A DNA stretch of 64,000 nt, taken from contig JBDRNO010000218.1 in assembly GCA_043811005.1 (NCBI GenBank), positions 6,925 through 70,924 of the forward strand, read 5' to 3'. The notes under the pieces were generated by a model. That model worked only from the letters and a program-made list of their open reading frames with translations, was not told where the DNA came from and searched no databases. Both the position numbers and the translations under genes were made by a program. Of the stretch, positions 4,688-56,514 are shown piece after piece (the stretch's first letter is position 1; each line of letters opens with the position of its first letter). The DNA is from Bacteroidota bacterium (GTDB taxonomy: Bacteria; Bacteroidota; Bacteroidia; NORP154).

Positions 4688-7600
4688 CTATTTGTTTATT
4701 AATCCCATTGAACAAATTATTTGAGGTTCTTTGTTGGGCATTTCATCCTGATTTACAATGCAAAGCTTATCTTCTTCACGCAAGGAAACGACAAGGTTAA
4801 CAAGATCTTCGTCAGAAATACCTGCTTTAAGCTGACGGTTCAATGTTTCCCTTGCGAATTCTTTAAATGGGTATTTATAAATATCATCAACGGCTTTCTT
4901 TAATGCATCGTTCACAAATATGGTATTTTCATATTCCTTACAATACCTGTCAAGACGCATGTAAACCCTGTATTTCGCACCGGTCTTTTTACCAAGTGAG
5001 CTACCGGTAATTTTCTCATCGACCCGGATATATTCAATACCTTTCTTTACAAGTTCATGATGTTTTAAGATTCTATACAGTGGTTCTACATCGGAGTTAC
5101 AAGCCGCTGCTTTTAGAATTGTAAGCTGTGATTGTGTAATAATATTTCCCTTGGTATTTACCCATGCAAGTACATCATTTTCATCATAAGTTCGGGTATA
5201 AACGATCACACCTTCTTTTTCAGCCGCCAGATTATTTTGTTTTGTAGCATAAATGACATTGGGTAAATTGGGTATTGTTTTTATAAATTCAGGTGTTTCA
5301 TCGGTTGCATTTTTCCATATTTGGAAAGCAAAAGAAGCTAAATCAACTTCGCTATCCCCATCTTCTTCGTCCAAAATACCAGATTTTTCGTTATAGAGAT
5401 CTTCAATATTAATTGGGTCGCCATCAAAAAAAACTTCATCGGATCCAACAACTTCAGCATTTTGACGTATGCGATTTGTAAGCCTGTGGCGCAGATTAAT
5501 TATTTGCTCAATTCCATCTTCCGGCAAAAACGAATAGCATATTATTTGTTCTGCCTTTTGTCCAATACGATCAACACGTCCTGCTCGTTGTATAAGCCTT
5601 ATTATTGCCCAAGGCAAATCATAATTCAAAATTATATGGGCATCCTGCAAATTCTGCCCTTCACTCAGAACATCTGTGGAAACTAAAACCCTGATGTCAT
5701 TTTTTGTTTCAGGTATTTTGTTGCTTACCGGACTAAAACGGTACGCCAATGCAGTTGGGTTTTCGCTATTTCCGGTAACGTGTTCAAGTTGTTCAAGTTT
5801 TCGGATTTTTAAATGCTCTGATAAATAATAAGCAGTATCGGCATACTGAGTAAATATCAGCACTTTTTCGTTTTTGTGTTTGTTAGATAACAGTTTGTGC
5901 AAAGCATTCAGTTTTCTATCTTCATTCACATTCCAATCGTTGCCTACTTTTAATATTTTTATTATATCAGAACAATCAGTTGACAATTGTTTGAGCAAAA
6001 CCGGAGCGAAAAATTCACTTCTTATCCAATCAAATTGATGTTTATACTTGCTGCTACTATACAATTCATAAACCTTTGATGCTTTTTTCAAATAAACATT
6101 TTCATTAAGTATAAAATTGATGGTATTTTCATCTTCACCATTATTATCAGTATCATTATCCTCCAGAAAATCATCAAGGTTTTGAGAAATGTTTTTGCCA
6201 ATAGGAACAGGTAAATTGTTTTGAATAGCATAGAAAAAAACATAGTTCCGCAAAATATGCCTGCTTATTGAAATAAGAAAAGAAAAGCCACTGCTTTCAA
6301 GTCTTTTAAAAAGATTTGTCCTGCAAAATCCCATTAATCGTTTTCCTGCACGTGATAAATTTGCTATGATTACTTCTTCCTCTTTAGTTGGTTTAATGGA
6401 AGGCTTTTGTAGTATATAATTTGCTAAACCGTAACGAGGCAAATCAAGTCCATTAATAATATCTACAACACTTTTGGAATATAGTTTTGCGTATTGGTCT
6501 TTTGGATTATCGGGGTTAAAGTCAAATTCAACTTTTTTAGGAATTCTATCAGGGAAATAAGACCGTGTTCCGTCTGAAAAAGTCAAATACTTTCTGTTTT
6601 TATCAGGGTCTAATTCTGCATAGTTTTCTTTAATAAAACTTCTTGTTCTGCGAACAAGATAAAGCCGCATTAATTCACGCCAATCATCTGCATAATGACT
6701 TTTTTCAAAAGCTTTAATACTGCGAATAAAAGTTTCTGTATGTTGTGCACCAAACTGTACTTGTCCGCCTATATTGTTTATATAATTTTCCGGACTAATT
6801 CCCAAATCTTTATCATCCGAAATAAAAAGACGAAGTTGATTTGATAAGTCCAAATAGGATTTGTTATAGGGAGTTGCAGAAAGTAAAATAACCTTACTGT
6901 CATTTTCTTCAAGATATGCTTTTATTGAACGATAACGACTACCCTGATCGTTTCGTAAGTTGTGGCTTTCATCTATTATTACAAGTTTATATCTGCGTAA
7001 ATCCGGCAGTTTTCTTTGTACTTCGCCTATTGAAATTACATTTGCCTTTAAATCATATCTGTTGATGTAGCCTGACCACATCGTTTTTAGATTTGGCGGG
7101 CAAATTACAAGCGTTGAATAGAAAAAATCCTCTTCAAATATTTTTGCTAAAGCACATGCTGTAATTGTCTTTCCTAACCCGACAACATCACCAATAAAAA
7201 CACCTTCGCGGCTGTTTAATTTTTTTGCTGCGATTAAAACGGCTGCTTGTTGAAAAGGCAGAAGTTCTTTTTTAAAGACTTTTGGAATTTTAAATTCATT
7301 CAATCCGGCTCTTGCTTCTTGTGAAAGATGATAAGCCATTTTCAGGTAAATATGATAAGGTGAAACCAAACGGTCTGCCGCCCAGCTATTATCAATGATA
7401 TCAATTAGTTCTTCAGTAATATCAATACACCAGCGATCTTTCCAACGATCATCAAACCATTTAGCTAATTTTGTTGCAGCATCCTGATCCATTACGTCAA
7501 CATTCAATTCTCCTTGTTTTGCAGGGCCGGCCAATGTCAGGTTACTGCTCCCCAAAAAACCAACTACCGGCACACGTTTATCTTCGCTGTAAGCTAAATA

Positions 7601-20343: not shown

Positions 20344-20482
20344 GTTACTGGTTACTGGGTGCTGAGTACTGGTAGTAATCACTTCATAAAAAATGTTATC
20401 AAAATAAACCAGAAACCAGTTACCAGCCTTCGCAGGCAGTAGCCTGCTTTGGCAGGCGAAGGCCAGCAGCCAGAAACTGTAA
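20344..20482. repeat. Word-hairpin repeat plus GC-rich palindrome
   Basis: Arm ttactggttactgggtgctgagtactggta (20344-20373) faces arm aaccagaaaccagttaccag (20406-25). It is followed by ccttc-gcaggc-agta-gcctgc-tttg-gcaggc-gaagg (20426-20461). Confidence 0.7.
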
Positions 20483-22397: not shown

Positions 22398-22475
22398 TTA
22401 CGCGAATCGTTAATCAGGCGCGAATGAAGCGAATAGTATTCGCATAATTCGAGTTGAAATTAGCGATTCGCGTAA
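22398..22475. repeat. Nested inverted repeat built from CGCGAAT words
   Basis: ttacgcgaatcg (22398-22409) is the perfect reverse complement of cgattcgcgtaa (22464-22475). Inner gcgaata-g-tattcgc palindrome. Confidence 0.7.
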
Positions 22476-26290: not shown

Positions 26291-26464
26291 AACATAATTT
26301 CATTAATTGATTAAAAAAGAAATTATATATATAATTGAGTTAAGAATAAATAAGCTAATGTTGCTGGGTACTGGTTACTGGGTGGTTGTACTGATTTCGT
26401 AGTCTGAGTATAAAACCAACAACCCCGAACCAAGAACCCAAAGCCCAGAAACTGATTATTAAAT
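26291..26464 (+). repeat. Dispersed ~180-bp hairpin repeat, copy A
   Basis: Aligns by eye along its whole length with the reverse complement of 37415-37598. Shared segments: aacataa..attgattaaaaaa, aattgagttaa, taatgttgctgg, core gtactg..gagtataaaac.aacaacc, and terminus ctgattattaaat. Internal GGT-word arm faces an ACC-word arm. Confidence 0.8.
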
Positions 26465-26497
26465 ACTAAAAAAGTTAAGTTCTAAAATAAAGCTTTG

Positions 26498-30680: not shown

Positions 30681-30793
30681 AAGTAGGCAATTAACAATAG
30701 GCAGTAGGCAATATGTTTTTTTACCAACTGCATACTGCCAACTGTCAACTTGCCTATTAACATCAACAAAATTATCGTCCGATAGCTGACGGA
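30681..30793. repeat. TGCCAAC/TGCCTAC-word hairpin element ending in palindrome tccgatagctgacgga
   Basis: Arms aagtaggcaattaacaataggcagtaggcaa / ccaactgcatactgccaactgtcaacttgcctatt, then aacatcaacaaaattatcg, then the palindrome at 30778-30793. Homologous copies at 33201-33305 and 48182-48269 (reverse). Confidence 0.75.
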
Positions 30794-37345: not shown

Positions 37346-37414
37346 AAGGTTAGCTAATTAATAGTATCGGAATTTCAATATTTAAACCCGATATGCTGTT
37401 AATTAATCTTTTAA

Positions 37415-37598
37415 ATTTAATAATCAGGTGCTGGGTGCTGGGTTCTGGGCACTGGGTTCCAGGTTGTTAGTTTTATACTCAAACTCTGTAACCAGTACAT
37501 ACCACCCAGCACACAGCAACCAGTATCCAGCAACATTATCTTATATATAATTAACTCAATTTAAAATATTTTTTTTAATCAATTTACAAAGTTATGTT
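37415..37598 (-). repeat. Dispersed ~180-bp hairpin repeat, copy B (inverted relative to copy A)
   Basis: Reverse complement aligns with 26291-26464. Contains the empty-site version ttttttaatcaatttacaaagttatgtt (37571-37598). Confidence 0.8.
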
Positions 37599-39517: not shown

Positions 39518-40432
39518 TTAATCTGTGTTCAACAAATACTGACTGAAAAGGTTATAATAAAAATGTTTTGGTGTATCATTGAACAGGTAGCTATACTCAA
39601 AACTGTCGCTCCTTTCCCCTAAGCTAATATTCCTGATATACTTGTAAAGCAATGAATAATGATCGGAATTTTTTTCTATTTCCCCAATCAATACTAATTC
39701 CTGGTTTTCGGGATTTAATTGAAGCTGTTCGCAAACAAATAGAATGTAATAAACAAAGTCCTCTTTTGTCTGATAGTCAAATGAATTAAAGAGTATCAGG
39801 TTTTTGCCATCTAATACCACAACATCAAAGTGAGAATCACGGAAATGAATGATCAGCTTTTTATCATTGTGGTTTTTATATTGGATCAACAGCCCTTCAA
39901 TCAGTGAACTTGAATGATGGAATATACTAACACCAGGAAATGCATTTTTTAATGTACTATCAACGCATTGTGGCAGAATGTACAGGTTTAGTGAGTCCAG
40001 ATTACTCAATTTATCAGCAGCAACTTTTTCATCCTTATCAATGGAATGATTAAAGCCCAGGTAATCTTCCTCGTTAGATTTTTCAAATAATGGAGTTGGG
40101 ATTAATGTTGATCTGTTATGTACTATTAATGCACTTGCCGATTTATATCTCATTTGCAGCAAGTCATTTTTTTGGATCAATTTGTCGAGTATAACGCATA
40201 GAGAAACGGAATTTTGAATCCTTTCAAAATGCCAGGACTCCAAGCCAATATATTTATTGCGTTTGGTATTGAGTATACAAAAAGAAAATCCCTCCAAACC
40301 GAGTTGAAGGGACAGATGATATTGTGATAACAAATTTTTATCAAATGATTCGTCAATAAGACTTATGGCTGGGTGCTGGGTGCTTGTTACTGGGTGCTTG
40401 TTACTGGGTGCTTGGTGCTGGTTAATAGTCAC
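39518..40432 (-). CDS. DUF3822-family protein (start uncertain)
   Basis: YHLSLQLGLEGFSFCIL... pattern, and the conserved flavobacterial neighbourhood with rsmD/coaD. The only in-frame start is a GTG inside the heptamer array, so the first ~22 codons are repeat-encoded. Confidence 0.55.
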   Translation of the reverse strand: MTINQHQAPSNKHPVTSTQHPAISLIDESFDKNLLSQYHLSLQLGLEGFSFCILNTKRNKYIGLESWHFERIQNSVSLCVILDKLIQKNDLLQMRYKSASALIVHNRSTLIPTPLFEKSNEEDYLGFNHSIDKDEKVAADKLSNLDSLNLYILPQCVDSTLKNAFPGVSIFHHSSSLIEGLLIQYKNHNDKKLIIHFRDSHFDVVVLDGKNLILFNSFDYQTKEDFVYYILFVCEQLQLNPENQELVLIGEIEKNSDHYSLLYKYIRNISLGERSDSFEYSYLFNDTPKHFYYNLFSQYLLNTD

Positions 40433-40556
40433 TGTTTGCTGGTTACTGGTTGCTGTTTGCTGGTTACTGGTTGCTGGATGCTGGTCACTGGTTGCTGGAT
40501 GCTGGTTGCTGGTTGCTGGTTACTGGTTGCTGGATGCTGGTCACTGGTTGCTGGTT
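40368..40556. repeat. Tandem heptanucleotide array, 27 units of RCTGGTT in unbroken 7-nt phase
   Basis: Hand-sliced units: gctgggt gctgggt gcttgtt actgggt ... actggtt gctggtt. The 28-bp blocks 40466-40493 and 40522-40549 are identical. Confidence 0.9.
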
Positions 40557-40597
40557 TAACCTGTGAAATTTGAGTTGCGAAGCGAATATTTCACTAG

Positions 40598-40880
40598 GAT
40601 TACTTGATATTGGATATTAGATGTTTGATATTCTTATAACACCGATTACACCGATTTTAATGATTACACAGATTTGTCATTGTCAATTGCCTACTGCTTA
40701 CTGGTTGCATGGTTGTTTGATAGTTTTTATTGCTTACTGCTTATTGTATCCGAACAATCCCCGCTTCTCCGTTTCGCCCACTCTCCGATTCCAAATTTCA
40801 ATAATTGCCAACTGCCTACTGTCAACTGCATACTTATCGCTGGGCACCAGTCAATTAATGTAATTTTTTACCAATAATCT
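40598..40880. repeat. Consecutive blocks of different short-word tandem repeats
   Basis: NGATNTT x5 (40598-40632); caccgatta-type 9-mers (40641-40675); TGYMWAC heptamers (40674-40708 and 40803-40835). No credible ORF. Confidence 0.75.
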
Positions 40881-40903
40881 TTAATCAACAATCTGTAATC
40901 AAT

Positions 40904-41515
40904 TTATTCTCCCCAGTTACCACTTGTTGAGGGTTCTTCCATGGATCCTACCTTTAATCCATCGTTCAGGTCAATATCTTCGTTTTTCATGTCTAAACCC
41001 TGGTAAATAACTCCATAACTTGCAAAAACTTCAAACACCTTAACTCTTACCTTTCCTTTTTCTACTTCTCCTGCCCGAATCCTGAATTTCTCACCCCTTC
41101 CAAATGGTATACGGGGCAACGAGTCAATATGGAACGAAGCCAAATGATCTTGCAGGTAATTTGAGGAAAAAATGGAATCTTTAACATTAATATATGATGT
41201 GTCTCTTGTCACAATGCCCATTTGAACTGCTTCTTCTTCACTTAATGTATCAGGCACGGTACCTACTGCCATAATTAGAGGAAAAGAATCATTCTTAACA
41301 AAATAAAGGAGAGAATCAAAATTGTCTGCATAAAAGTCATTTACCATTTTAAAAGCGATTTGAGCGGTTCTGATATCTTTTAACCGTTCGATAACAAAAT
41401 CCCGTCTGTGCATTGTTTCCTTTTCAAATTTGATTTTACTGGCTATACTGTCATAAACGAAATATAATAAAACGATTATTATTAGCCACAATACGATTTT
41501 GAGGATTGGTTTCAT
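40904..41515 (-). CDS. Hypothetical N-terminally membrane-anchored protein
   Basis: 203 aa; one N-terminal TM helix (ILKIVLWLIIIVLLYFVY); no motif recognised. Confidence 0.4.
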   Translation of the reverse strand: MKPILKIVLWLIIIVLLYFVYDSIASKIKFEKETMHRRDFVIERLKDIRTAQIAFKMVNDFYADNFDSLLYFVKNDSFPLIMAVGTVPDTLSEEEAVQMGIVTRDTSYINVKDSIFSSNYLQDHLASFHIDSLPRIPFGRGEKFRIRAGEVEKGKVRVKVFEVFASYGVIYQGLDMKNEDIDLNDGLKVGSMEEPSTSGNWGE

Positions 41516-44840: not shown

Positions 44841-44938
44841 CTGGTTGCTGGATACTAGATGCTGGATATTAGATATTTGTTATTGTCATTGTTAATTGTC
44901 TACTGTCAACTGCCTGCTTTCAACTGGATTCTGGTTAA
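44841..44938. repeat. 14 heptamers in one continuous phase whose word drifts CTGGTTG > CTGGATA > TTAGATA > TTGTCAT > TGTCAAC > TGCCTGC > TGGTTAA
   Basis: Hand-sliced from 44841. Lies immediately upstream of the ispH start (44835, minus strand). Confidence 0.8.
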
Positions 44939-45110: not shown

Positions 45111-45166
45111 CATCCATCTCCCATCAACCATCTCACATCTCACATCAAATATATTCCATCGAATAT
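45111..45166. repeat. 8 heptamers, most ending in CAT
   Basis: catccat ctcccat caaccat ctcacat ctcacat caaatat attccat cgaatat. Confidence 0.75.
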
Positions 45167-52671: not shown

Positions 52672-52696
52672 GCGTTTAGTGTTTCCTGTTTCCTGT

Positions 52697-53110
52697 TTAG
52701 TGTTTTTTTTTGATTTTTTCCTGTTTGTACTTTTGGCCCCTGATGTCAGTAGAATTAAGATAATCTATAAGCCCTTTTATCATTTTGCCTATATCATCAG
52801 CAAGAGTATAAAGTTCATTAAATTTTGCTTTTGTAATGTATTCTTGGTCTAATATTCTGTATAGTTGTGAACGTAATTCACCTGATGAACCTTTTGCATA
52901 ACCTAAGAATTGTATAAATTCACCATTCCCACCTCTTTCAAAACCCTCTGCAATATTGTCCATAATAGATCCGCTGGAATCTGTCATTTGATCTTTCAGC
53001 TTAAAATCTTTAGACAGACCTCCTGTTTTGGTAATTTCATAAACTTTTTTAGACAATTCTCTTGCCTTTTGCCAAGCGATTATGTCTTCAAATCTCTCAA
53101 TTGTAGCCAT
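52697..53110 (-). CDS. Four-helix-bundle protein (23S rRNA intervening-sequence protein family)
   Basis: FEDIIAWQKARELSKKVYEIT..., DQMTDSSGSIMDNIAEGFERG..EFIQFLGYAKGSSGELRSQL. Start set to MATIERF (53110). Confidence 0.8.
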   Translation of the reverse strand: MATIERFEDIIAWQKARELSKKVYEITKTGGLSKDFKLKDQMTDSSGSIMDNIAEGFERGGNGEFIQFLGYAKGSSGELRSQLYRILDQEYITKAKFNELYTLADDIGKMIKGLIDYLNSTDIRGQKYKQEKIKKKH

Positions 53111-53183
53111 TTTTTTATTAATACCCCATATTAAAAAAATCAACTCTAAACAGACAACTCTAAACCCTGAATAAAAAAACTAA

Positions 53184-56270: not shown

Positions 56271-56514
56271 GCTACGAAATACGAAAATATACGAATGTAC
56301 GAAAACACGTTTTTAATATAAATTTACAATTCTTTTTGAAACAGCATTTTGATAAAACTTCTCTTTATGCCCAAAACCCACTTCTGTCCATACATTAAAC
56401 AAAACCCCTATTATTTGATAAGATAATTCAGGATAAACTAAATCCTTTTTTTTTTAACTTACTTGACTGCATTATTCTTTTTCGTATATTCGTAAACATT
56501 TCGTATTTCGTAGC
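56271..56514. repeat. Inverted repeats built from TACGAAA words, flanking a 212-bp AT-rich segment
   Basis: gctacgaaatacgaaa (56271-56286) is the perfect reverse complement of tttcgtatttcgtagc (56499-56514). Further acgaa words extend both arms (to 56309 and from 56478). Confidence 0.8.

What the first reader, a model, noticed from the sequence alone, without database searches (positions are those of the whole stretch)
40368..40880. Half a kilobase of non-coding DNA made of successive short-word tandem arrays, led by 27 in-phase heptamers that overlap a gene start
40368-40556 is 27 consecutive RCTGGTT heptamers with no phase slip and an internal 28-bp higher-order duplication. It is followed by blocks of NGATNTT heptamers, caccgatta-type 9-mers and TGYMWAC heptamers up to about 40880.

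The same word families recur in many other intergenic regions:
- GGT words at 20344, 26365, 37427 and 44841
- TGCCAAC words at 30681, 33201, 48225 and 51611
- GATATT words at 44848 and 55144
- NNNNCAT words at 45111
- CGCGAAT words at 22398
- TACGAAA words at 56271

They are often arranged as two complementary arms, and 7-nt periodicity dominates. The only available start (GTG 40432) of the DUF3822 gene lies inside the array. A change of one unit would therefore shift its frame, a slipped-strand phase-variation geometry, although the units are degenerate and the gene is not an obvious contingency locus. I know of no described function for such heptad word arrays.
Basis: seen in the sequence. 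Interest (0 to 1): 0.6.

Follow-up and report, generated by a model that had tools for sequence, protein, structure and literature searches.

The report
Expanded heptamer-repeat satellite at gene start
The half-kilobase of 7-base repeats is real: it is an unusually swollen copy of a repeat element scattered through this uncultured Bacteroidota genome, of a known but unexplained bacterial repeat class, and it has overrun the start of a conserved gene, most likely as tolerated junk and not as an on/off switch.

Summary
Observation confirmed. 40368-40556 is 27 in-phase heptamers, followed by blocks of 7-, 8- and 9-nt words.

The genome holds 1074 period-7 arrays, against 169 after local shuffling. 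73% lie in the 13.5% of DNA outside long ORFs.

The stretch did not grow locally on its own. It is an expanded copy of a dispersed composite with a conserved word order: CTGGKTN > CTGGATR > TTRGATA > TTGTCAT > TGCCWAC. I found 27 such loci. Copies differ by whole units. The composite was not found in 400 other genomes of the class.

The same word families form the arms of an 82-copy hairpin element and of cassettes around Avd-like PF05635 genes.

Heptamer excess in intergenic DNA is already described (Mrazek 2007 as cited; Rehm 2015; MacGregor 2015). This scan has noted it in hundreds of genomes.

GTG 40432 is the only start that keeps the conserved N-terminus, and a change of one or two units loses it. 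However, the translated units are degenerate and the gene is a widely kept Bacteroidota gene, so a switch is unlikely.

Best reading: slippage-driven satellite-like DNA that has replaced the gene's leader and first codons.

The parts
40368..40556 (+). A block: 27 in-phase heptamers, consensus GCTGGTT (RCTGGKT). 40368-40423 is 8 units of the GCTGGGT/GCTTGTT/ACTGGGT type. 40424-40437 is the two most degenerate units (AATAGTC ACTGTTT). 40438-40556 is 17 units with a 56-nt higher-order repeat.
   Evidence: TRF; unit list; per-position conservation.
39518..40432 (-). DUF3822 gene, 304 aa from GTG 40432. Residues 2-22 are encoded by array units. The Pfam domain starts at residue 27.
   Evidence: ORF list. 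Pfam PF12864, E 9.9e-72, residues 27-269. Homologue N-termini. The same protein is on record at NCBI.
40430..40432 (-). GTG, the only canonical start that keeps the conserved N-terminal ISLIDESFD segment. It lies in the two degenerate units and has an A-rich upstream context (CAAACA).
40557..40605 (+). Non-periodic spacer with a small inverted repeat, GTGAAAT...ATTTCAC (40563-40594).
40606..40632 (+). C block: GATATTN heptamers x3.9.
   Evidence: TRF; the same family occurs at other loci.
40639..40674 (+). D block: ACACCGATT 9-mers x4.
   Evidence: TRF. Found in the same position in the composites at C129 and C210.
40673..40745 (+). E/F' block: TTTGTCATTGTCAATTGCCTACTGCTTACTGG... heptamers.
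   Evidence: Lag-7 identity 0.57-0.67; shared with other composites.
40759..40792 (+). G block: CCCCGCTTCTCCGTTTCGCCCACTCTCCGATTCC, period about 8.
   Evidence: The same words follow the E/F blocks at C23, C169 and C293. They also form the arms of the PF05635 gene at C309.
40806..40829 (+). F block: TGCCAAC/TGCCTAC/TGTCAAC heptamers x3.4.
   Evidence: TRF; BLAST matches to about 30 other loci.
40872..40902 (+). CAACAATCTGTAAT 14-mer x2.2, abutting the stop of the upstream gene.
   Evidence: TRF.
40904..41515 (-). Upstream co-directional gene (203 aa, no Pfam match). Its stop faces the F end of the composite.
44841..44938 (+). Compact copy (about 14 units) of the same composite, with the same word order. 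Its CTGGTTG end lies 5 nt from an ATG on the opposite strand.
37367..37588 (+). Copy of the 82-copy hairpin element, with (GGTGCTG)n and (ACCCAGY)n arms.
   Evidence: nhmmer E 6e-54; sequence; RNA fold z = -4.1.
26303..26493 (-). Second window copy of the hairpin element.
   Evidence: nhmmer E 2.7e-46; sequence.
52674..53166 (-). PF05635 (Avd-like, 23S rRNA IVS protein) gene with inverted short-word arms at 53141-53166 and 52674-52702.

Best explanation
What it is (shown). The stretch is one greatly expanded copy of a lineage-specific, dispersed composite of short-word tandem arrays. The word order is CTGGKTN, CTGGATR, TTRGATA, (ACACCGATT), TTGTCAT/TGTCAAT, TGCCWAC, plus a CTCCGTTTC/CCCACTC block. 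It belongs to the bacterial heptanucleotide-repeat class.

How it changes (inferred). It behaves like satellite DNA. Copies gain and lose whole units, in steps of 7 nt and multiples of 14, 28 and 56 nt, by replication slippage or unequal exchange. Such arrays are tolerated only where no reading frame or signal is destroyed.

What happened at this locus. The first block grew until it met the first conserved residue of DUF3822. It replaced the ancestral leader and the first 14-32 or so codons. The gene now most likely begins at a GTG formed by the two most degenerate units, so 9 units are translated as a low-complexity tail (TINQHQAPSNKHPVTSTQHPA).

Status of each step.
- Shown: the anatomy, the genome-wide excess, the shared word order, the whole-unit differences between copies, and the frame geometry.
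- Inferred: slippage as the motor, the absence of a dedicated function, and the use of the GTG.
For: Genome-wide excess.
- 1074 period-7 arrays of 262 unit types against 169 after shuffling; 73% lie outside long ORFs.
- Perfect duplications are in excess only for units of 7 nt or more.

A dispersed family with a fixed order.
- 27 composite loci exist. The CTGG-type blocks precede GATATT in about 16 loci and follow it in about 3. The junction GATATTTGTTATTGTCAT is exact in 5 loci.

Change by whole units.
- Arm lengths of the hairpin-element copies are 15/22/29/36 and 35/42/49 nt.
- One arm can expand far more than the other: 19 against 3 octamers at C250, and TAACTGA x13 at C126.
- The array itself holds a 35-nt exact internal duplicate.

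Not conserved.
- Orthologous DUF3822 loci of relatives have no array. A 52%-identical homologue has a TAnnTTTG promoter box and an ATG instead.
- The closest relative by DUF3822 identity has no CTGG-type arrays at all.

No sign of a strand-specific role.
- There is no orientation bias relative to flanking genes: 206 against 206.

Arrays stop at constraint.
- Five other CTGG arrays end 2-5 nt before an ATG. Here the array ends 1 nt before the codon of the conserved Ile of ISLIDESFD.
Against: - The conserved word order shows dispersal of a composite, but I found no transposition or conversion mechanism and no target duplications.
- Unit positions are unequally conserved (CT and G strong, positions 1 and 6 weak). 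That could reflect a recognised motif.
- CTGG arrays show an 11:1 asymmetry for lying with their 5' end next to an antisense start codon. This could mean a leader function.
- The sense transcript of the spacer is less structured than all 100 shuffles (z = +3.05). That would suit translation initiation without a Shine-Dalgarno sequence.
- Why 7 nt is preferred remains unexplained.
- No reads or strains were available to show ongoing slippage.
Confidence: 0.6

Rival explanations
1. Cis-acting leader. In the sense transcript, the (AACCAGC)n array and the following blocks form a long, unstructured, C/A-rich 5' leader. This leader either promotes translation initiation in a phylum that does not rely on Shine-Dalgarno pairing, or it is an array of sites for a single-strand-binding regulator with a footprint of about 7 nt (cold-shock or S1-type), as MacGregor proposed for TAACTGA repeats.
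For: - The sense RNA folds worse than all 100 shuffles.
- 11 solo CTGG arrays have an antisense ATG-ORF within 40 nt of their 5' end, 5 of them within 2-5 nt, against 1 on the other side.
- There is a precedent for heptamer repeats placed just upstream of start codons, and for CspB binding one heptamer per monomer (PMC4679880).
Against: - Period-7 arrays as a class show no orientation bias (206 against 206) and are densest in convergent spacers.
- Composites lie in both orientations: 11 antisense and 7 sense.
- Only 15% of solo CTGG arrays abut a start codon.
- Any non-self-complementary direct repeat folds poorly, so the z-score is a built-in property of such repeats.
- The control side is not the true end of the composite.
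Confidence: 0.15
2. Product of an active element. The arrays are arms, or solo remnants of arms, of hairpin cassettes of the 23S-rRNA-intervening-sequence type, whose full form carries an Avd-like PF05635 gene. An activity encoded by or associated with the element would make, copy or spread the heptamer arms, and this stretch would be a stack of such arm material.
For: - The genome has 16 PF05635 genes.
- 10 of the 16 have an inverted-repeat match of 14 or more between their 170-nt flanks, against 1.3% of 300 control genes.
- Their arms use word families A (C204), E (C273) and G (C309) of the composite.
- Relatives show the same layout.
- An 82-copy gene-less hairpin element has A-type arms. 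In some loci its arm runs on into the composite, as at C62 and C100.
Against: - This stretch has no complementary arm and no PF05635 remnant.
- PF05635 copy number does not track array density in the five relatives sampled: 9, 8, 2, 2 and 4 genes, against 1.6, 6.8, not measured, 8.7 and 1.0 strong arrays per 100 kb.
- No enzyme or mechanism is known.
- The association may only mean that hairpin cassettes and arrays accumulate in the same permissive spacers.
Confidence: 0.12
3. Slipped-strand phase variation of DUF3822. Changes in unit number downstream of GTG 40432 would switch the gene on and off.
For: - 9 units lie between the only usable start and the conserved region.
- Seven is not a multiple of three.
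- Simulated changes of plus or minus 1 or 2 units remove the start, leaving only TTG 40333, which cuts off the conserved segment.
- Heptamer tracts do drive phase variation in Haemophilus influenzae hmw1A (paper PMC8262952, listed).
Against: - The translated units are degenerate, with at most two identical neighbours. Known switches use long perfect tracts.
- DUF3822 is kept in 26 of 31 related genomes and is not a surface or restriction-type gene.
- Arrays of this kind are everywhere in this genome whatever the neighbouring gene.
- No polymorphism data exist.
Confidence: 0.05
4. Assembly artefact. The length or composition of the 189-nt array was produced by short-read assembly of a metagenome bin.
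For: The genome is a 310-contig bin at 83% completeness. Many repeat copies lie at contig ends.
Against: - The units are degenerate enough to give unique words. The longest internal exact duplicate is 35 nt.
- The reading frame into DUF3822 stays open.
- Hundreds of independent arrays in this and other genomes show the same features.
Confidence: 0.03

Closest known systems
Heptanucleotide long simple-sequence repeats of prokaryotes (Mrazek, Guo and Shah 2007, read only as summarised in PMC4679880 and PMC4692102)
   Same: Tandem 7-nt units are the most over-represented long repeat, they lie mainly between genes, and polymerase slippage is the proposed cause. All of this holds here.
   Different: In this genome the arrays are also organised into dispersed composites with a fixed word order and into hairpin elements. 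The summaries I read do not describe that.
GGGAATC and GGGGA(C/T)T heptamer repeats of Xanthomonas and Nostoc (Rehm et al. 2015, PMC4692102)
   Same: Intergenic arrays with heterogeneous units, some positions conserved and others free, 2-26 units long, with some inverted pairs. Length and sequence differ between close relatives.
   Different: Those words are G-rich and can form quadruplexes. GCTGGTT has no G3 run. The host phylum differs.
TAACTGA repeats and heptamer assemblages in Beggiatoaceae, cyanobacteria and five Bacteroidetes (MacGregor 2015, PMC4679880)
   Same: Long arrays lie in Bacteroidetes spacers alongside other heptamer repeats, are absent from the orthologous spacers of relatives, and often sit just upstream of start codons. 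This genome has its own TAACTGA array, 17.0 copies by TRF with 12-13 perfect units, at C126.
   Different: The unit at the finding is GCTGGTT. Here TAACTGA is the expanded arm of a hairpin. The composite word order was not reported in that paper.
STRR heptamers of heterocyst-forming cyanobacteria (Mazel et al. 1990; the words CCCCAGT, TTGGTCA and CAACAGT are recalled from memory and were not checked)
   Same: Dispersed tandem heptamers in several word families. ACCCAGT, TTGGTCA and CAACAGC-type words occur here.
   Different: The phylum differs. Word identity is only approximate and rests on my memory.
Simple-sequence contingency loci, for example the heptamer tract of Haemophilus influenzae hmw1A (PMC8262952, PMC12721329; seen only as titles and abstracts)
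   Same: A tract whose unit is not a multiple of three lies between a start codon and the body of a gene.
   Different: Those tracts are long and perfect, vary between cells, and control surface proteins. Here the translated units are degenerate and the gene is widely conserved.
Hairpin cassettes carrying an Avd-like PF05635 gene (23S rRNA intervening-sequence protein; Avd homology noted in PMC10053308)
   Same: The arms are built from tandem short words of the same families as in this stretch.
   Different: The stretch has no inverted partner and no such gene.

Membership tests
Heptanucleotide long simple-sequence repeats (5-11 nt class) | Head-to-tail repeats of a 7-nt unit, longer than chance allows | tested here: met
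   27 units with 0 indels. Runs of 3 or more perfect units: 67 in the genome against 0 after shuffling.
Heptanucleotide long simple-sequence repeats (5-11 nt class) | Genome-wide over-representation, mainly between genes | tested here: met
   1074 arrays against 169 after shuffling; 73% lie in the 13.5% of DNA outside long ORFs. The lag-7 autocorrelation peak appears only there.
Heptanucleotide long simple-sequence repeats (5-11 nt class) | Not conserved at orthologous sites of relatives | tested here: met
   No array lies upstream of DUF3822 in 11 relatives or in two metagenome homologues.
STRR of heterocyst-forming cyanobacteria | Host is a heterocyst-forming cyanobacterium | tested here: not met
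   The genome encodes DUF3822, earlier notes report PorP/SprF and T9SS cargo genes, and its closest named relative is a Bacteroidetes MAG.
STRR of heterocyst-forming cyanobacteria | The specific words (recalled as CCCCAGT, TTGGTCA, CAACAGT) | tested here: inconclusive
   Words one mismatch away, and TTGGTCA itself, occur here. The reference words come from memory because the paper was not held.
TAACTGA repeat sets (MacGregor 2015) | The unit is TAACTGA | tested here: not met
   The unit here is GCTGGTT. A TAACTGA array does exist elsewhere in the genome, at C126.
TAACTGA repeat sets (MacGregor 2015) | Placed a few nt upstream of a start codon in one orientation | tested here: inconclusive
   Five CTGG arrays end 2-5 nt before an ATG, but the class as a whole has no orientation bias.
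Simple-sequence phase-variation locus | Tract inside the reading frame or promoter, with a unit that is not a multiple of 3 | tested here: met
   9 units lie downstream of GTG 40432. A change of plus or minus 1 or 2 units loses the start.
Simple-sequence phase-variation locus | Long run of identical units that makes slippage frequent | tested here: not met
   At most 2 identical neighbours occur in the translated part and 3 in the whole array.
Simple-sequence phase-variation locus | Unit-number polymorphism within a population | not testable with these tools
No near-identical locus exists in the public contigs searched.
PF05635 hairpin cassette (intervening-sequence type) | Two inverted arms of tandem short words | tested here: not met
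   No complementary arm lies within 40300-40950. The sense RNA is less structured than shuffles.
PF05635 hairpin cassette (intervening-sequence type) | Avd-like four-helix-bundle gene between the arms | tested here: not met
   The only ORFs inside the stretch are array-encoded. The nearest PF05635 gene is at 52.7-53.1 kb.

The most novel reading that the evidence does not exclude
Heptamer arrays are not passive slippage products. An active, templated process tied to the Avd-like PF05635 hairpin cassettes writes and spreads them. The fixed word order of the composite (CTGGKTN > CTGGATR > TTRGATA > TTGTCAT > TGCCWAC) would then be the trace of that process, and would explain the long-noted preference of bacteria for 7-nt repeats.
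Probability: 0.1. Interest if true: 0.8.

Novelty: new member of a known kind. Interest (0 to 1): 0.35.

Why it matters
Intergenic heptamer repeats have been reported in cyanobacteria, Xanthomonas, Beggiatoaceae and a few Bacteroidetes for decades, without a mechanism or a function.

This genome is a rich case for three reasons:
- Arrays make up a visible share of its spacer DNA.
- They are organised into two dispersed families whose copies differ by whole units.
- The same word families flank Avd-like genes.

The locus also shows what such an array can do to a gene. It has overwritten the leader and the first codons of a conserved gene, which now appears to start inside the repeat. For annotation, the practical lesson is that start codons and N-termini next to such arrays should be treated with caution.

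Tried and rejected
- Strain variants: the upstream protein has no exact match on record. The metagenome scan gave at most 57% identity. The DUF3822 protein is a singleton cluster.
- Rfam: nothing at gathering thresholds in the window. The permissive search returned only chance-level microRNA-type hits.
- Complementary arm for the 27-unit array: none found.
- Composite junction in 400 genomes of the class: only single one-mismatch hits, at the rate of the reversed control and with no array context.
- PF05635 copy number against array density in five relatives: no simple relation.
- First control for inverted flanks, using shared 7-mers: uninformative because of AT-rich low complexity. I replaced it with an ungapped-match score.
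- A small ORF that reads through the hairpin-element consensus: rejected, because arm lengths differ by 7 nt between copies and so cannot keep a frame.
- Papers of Mrazek 2007, Mazel 1990 and Vioque 1997: not held. They are cited only through papers that summarise them, or from memory as marked.
- Promoter search in the spacer: I looked by eye for a Bacteroidota TAnnTTTG box on the gene strand and saw no exact match. I did not pursue this further.
Full report
**The observation**

The window is contig C218:6925-70924 of a 4.6-Mb metagenome bin with 310 contigs and 37.8% G+C. The closest named relative is a 'Bacteroidetes bacterium' MAG.

Tandem Repeats Finder reports 40368-40556 as 27.0 copies of a 7-nt unit with no indels, plus a 56-nt higher-order repeat. 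The units are RCTGGKT variants. Positions 2, 3, 5 and 7 are well kept, and positions 1 and 6 are loose.

Downstream of the array come these blocks:
- a 49-nt non-periodic spacer
- GATATTN heptamers
- four ACACCGATT 9-mers
- TGTCATT/GCCTACT heptamers
- an 8-nt-period CTCCGTTTC/CCCACTC block
- TGCCAAC heptamers
- a 14-mer doublet that abuts the stop of the upstream gene

Two (22398 and 33201) are weak.

**More than chance, and genome-wide**

- The genome has 1074 period-7 arrays of 262 unit types, against 169 in a locally shuffled copy. Periods 8, 14 and 21 are also raised.
- 73% of the period-7 arrays lie in the 13.5% of DNA outside ORFs of 100 codons or more.
- Base autocorrelation peaks at lags 7, 8, 14 and 21 only in that fraction.
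- Perfect tandem duplications outside long ORFs number 623 against 81 for 7-mers and 221 against 23 for 8-mers. There is no excess for 4- or 5-mers.
The periodicity is real.

**What the stretch is**

BLAST of 40557-40903 against the genome shows that each block recurs at many loci, and that C129 carries several blocks in the same order.

I marked six word families and counted ordered pairs. The order proved strongly directional. There are 27 loci with two or more families. The CTGG-type blocks precede GATATT in about 16 of them and follow it in about 3.

Written in heptamer register, 18 loci show the same stepwise gradient: CTGGTTG, CTGGATA, TTGGATA, TTAGATA, TTTGATA, TTTGTTA, TTGTCAT, then TGTCAATTGCC/TGCCAAC. 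Several continue into the CTCCGTTTC block. The number of units per block differs from locus to locus, and the flanks are unrelated.

The window holds a compact copy of about 14 units at 44841-44938.

The junction GATATTTGTTATTGTCAT is exact at five loci here. In 400 other genomes of the class it appears only as single one-mismatch hits, at the rate of the reversed control and without array context.

So 40368-40880 is an expanded member of a lineage-specific dispersed composite. It is not a set of arrays that arose on the spot.

**Related repeat families in the same genome**

Neighbouring arrays are inverted 62 times and direct 9 times.

The CTGG/CCAG pairs belong to an element of about 245 nt with conserved flanks and loop. 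It has 82 copies.
- Arm lengths across copies are 15, 22, 29 or 36 nt and 35, 42 or 49 nt, which are whole-heptamer differences.
- 39 of the 82 copies lie between two co-directional genes, about 12 nt after a stop and about 10-20 nt before the next start.
- The neighbouring genes are unrelated housekeeping genes.
- The element was not found in seven genomes of the same family.

Earlier notes of this scan led me to test PF05635. The genome has 16 such genes.
- Ten of the 16 have an inverted match of 14 or more between their flanks, against 1.3% of 300 control genes.
- Their arms include the CTGGGT, TGTCAT and CTCCGTTTC families.
- One arm can expand far beyond the other: 19 against 3 octamers at C250, and TAACTGA x13 at C126.
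- Relatives show the same layout.
- PF05635 copy number does not track array density in the five relatives sampled.

**Relatives**

| Genome | Strong period-7 arrays per 100 kb |
|---|---|
| This genome | 7.0 |
| G014 (another family of the class) | 8.7 |
| G005 (same family) | 6.8 |
| G001 | 1.6 |
| G401 (the relative closest by DUF3822 identity) | 1.0 |

G401 has no CTGG-type triple array. G005 carries a 27.7-unit TGGGTGC array. The trait is therefore patchy within the class.

**The gene start**

The DUF3822 domain begins at residue 27 of the GTG-started ORF. Homologues start 14-32 residues before a conserved (I/L)SL(I/V)DE(S/A)FD segment, nearly always at ATG. A 52%-identical homologue has a TAnnTTTG box and an ATG there.

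In this window the array ends 1 nt before the ATA that encodes the conserved Ile. The only canonical start upstream is GTG 40432, which lies in the two most degenerate units. The next start, TTG 40333, would remove the conserved segment. The NCBI record uses the same GTG.

The other two frames are closed by TAA/TGA inside the array. Simulated changes of plus or minus 1 or 2 units downstream of the GTG lose the start.

Against a switch:
- The translated units are degenerate, with at most two identical neighbours.
- The gene is kept in 26 of 31 related genomes.
- Arrays occur next to all kinds of genes.

**How it most likely works**

Several results fit satellite-like growth by slippage or unequal exchange, limited only by selection on neighbouring signals:
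- whole-unit differences between copies
- one-sided expansions
- the 35-nt internal duplicate
- absence from orthologous sites
- no orientation bias (206 against 206)

Five other CTGG arrays stop 2-5 nt before an ATG. Here the array stops at the first conserved codon.

I rate this reading at 0.6. The alternatives are:
- A leader function remains possible. The sense RNA is less structured than all shuffles, and there is an 11:1 asymmetry.
- An active process linked to the PF05635 cassettes is the most novel reading that the evidence does not exclude.

**Known or new**

Rehm et al. describe intergenic heptamer excess, heterogeneous units, inverted pairs and variation between close relatives in Xanthomonas and Nostoc. 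MacGregor describes long heptamer arrays and assemblages in Bacteroidetes spacers that relatives lack. Both cite Mrazek 2007 for heptamers as the commonest long repeat and for the slippage idea.

This scan has noted the class in hundreds of genomes.

The finding is a new member of a known kind. The fixed word order of the composite and the array-encoded N-terminus are details specific to this genome.

**Limits**

Unit-number polymorphism and assembly accuracy are therefore untested.
- Gene calls used for the statistics are crude ORF sets.

Noticed in passing
window 37367-37588 (+) and 26303-26493 (-); 82 copies genome-wide: A dispersed element of about 245 nt with conserved flanks and loop, whose hairpin arms are heptamer arrays that differ between copies by whole units. 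39 of the 82 copies sit between two co-directional genes, about 12 nt after a stop and 10-20 nt before the next start. A perfect TAnnTTTG box (TAACTTTG) lies on the gene strand just after the stop. It could be a terminator-plus-promoter cassette or a MITE.
   Followed up: partly
window 52674-53166 (-); 15 further loci in the genome (L097-L112): 16 Avd-like PF05635 genes. Ten have inverted short-word arrays in both flanks, against 1.3% of control genes. The arm words include families seen in the finding.
   Followed up: partly
G000:C250:4522-4673 and 5063-5086; G000:C126:1540-1841: Strongly one-sided arm expansion: 19 octamers against 3 around a PF05635 gene, and TAACTGA x13 (MacGregor's heptamer) as the grown arm of a hairpin.
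   Followed up: partly
hairpin-element copies at C129:24191, C26:20583, C212:13963, C57:450, C22:942: A GC-rich palindromic insert (GCCTTCGCAGGCCGTAGCCTGCTTTGGCAGGCGAAGGC type) sits inside the right arm of several copies. It may be related to the small GC-rich hairpin insert noted earlier in this window.
   Followed up: no
L045 = G005:C165:1101-4145, positions 1469-1740: A genome of the same family but another genus has a 27.7-unit TGGGTGC array followed by 9.7 units of GGTTCTT. This is the same word family and the same size as the finding, at an unrelated locus.
   Followed up: partly
whole genome: Octamer arrays are also far above expectation: 620 against 187 arrays, and 221 against 23 perfect duplications outside long ORFs. 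Units of 4-5 nt show no excess, so the excess starts at 7 nt and is not confined to 7.
   Followed up: partly
G000:C260:56544: The perfect (CCTGTTT)x3 reported earlier as a frameshift in a secreted peptidase gene is present. It fits active heptamer duplication in this lineage.
   Followed up: partly
window 40563-40594: The only non-periodic part of the spacer holds a small inverted repeat, GTGAAAT(N18)ATTTCAC, directly upstream of the 27-unit array on the gene strand.
   Followed up: no
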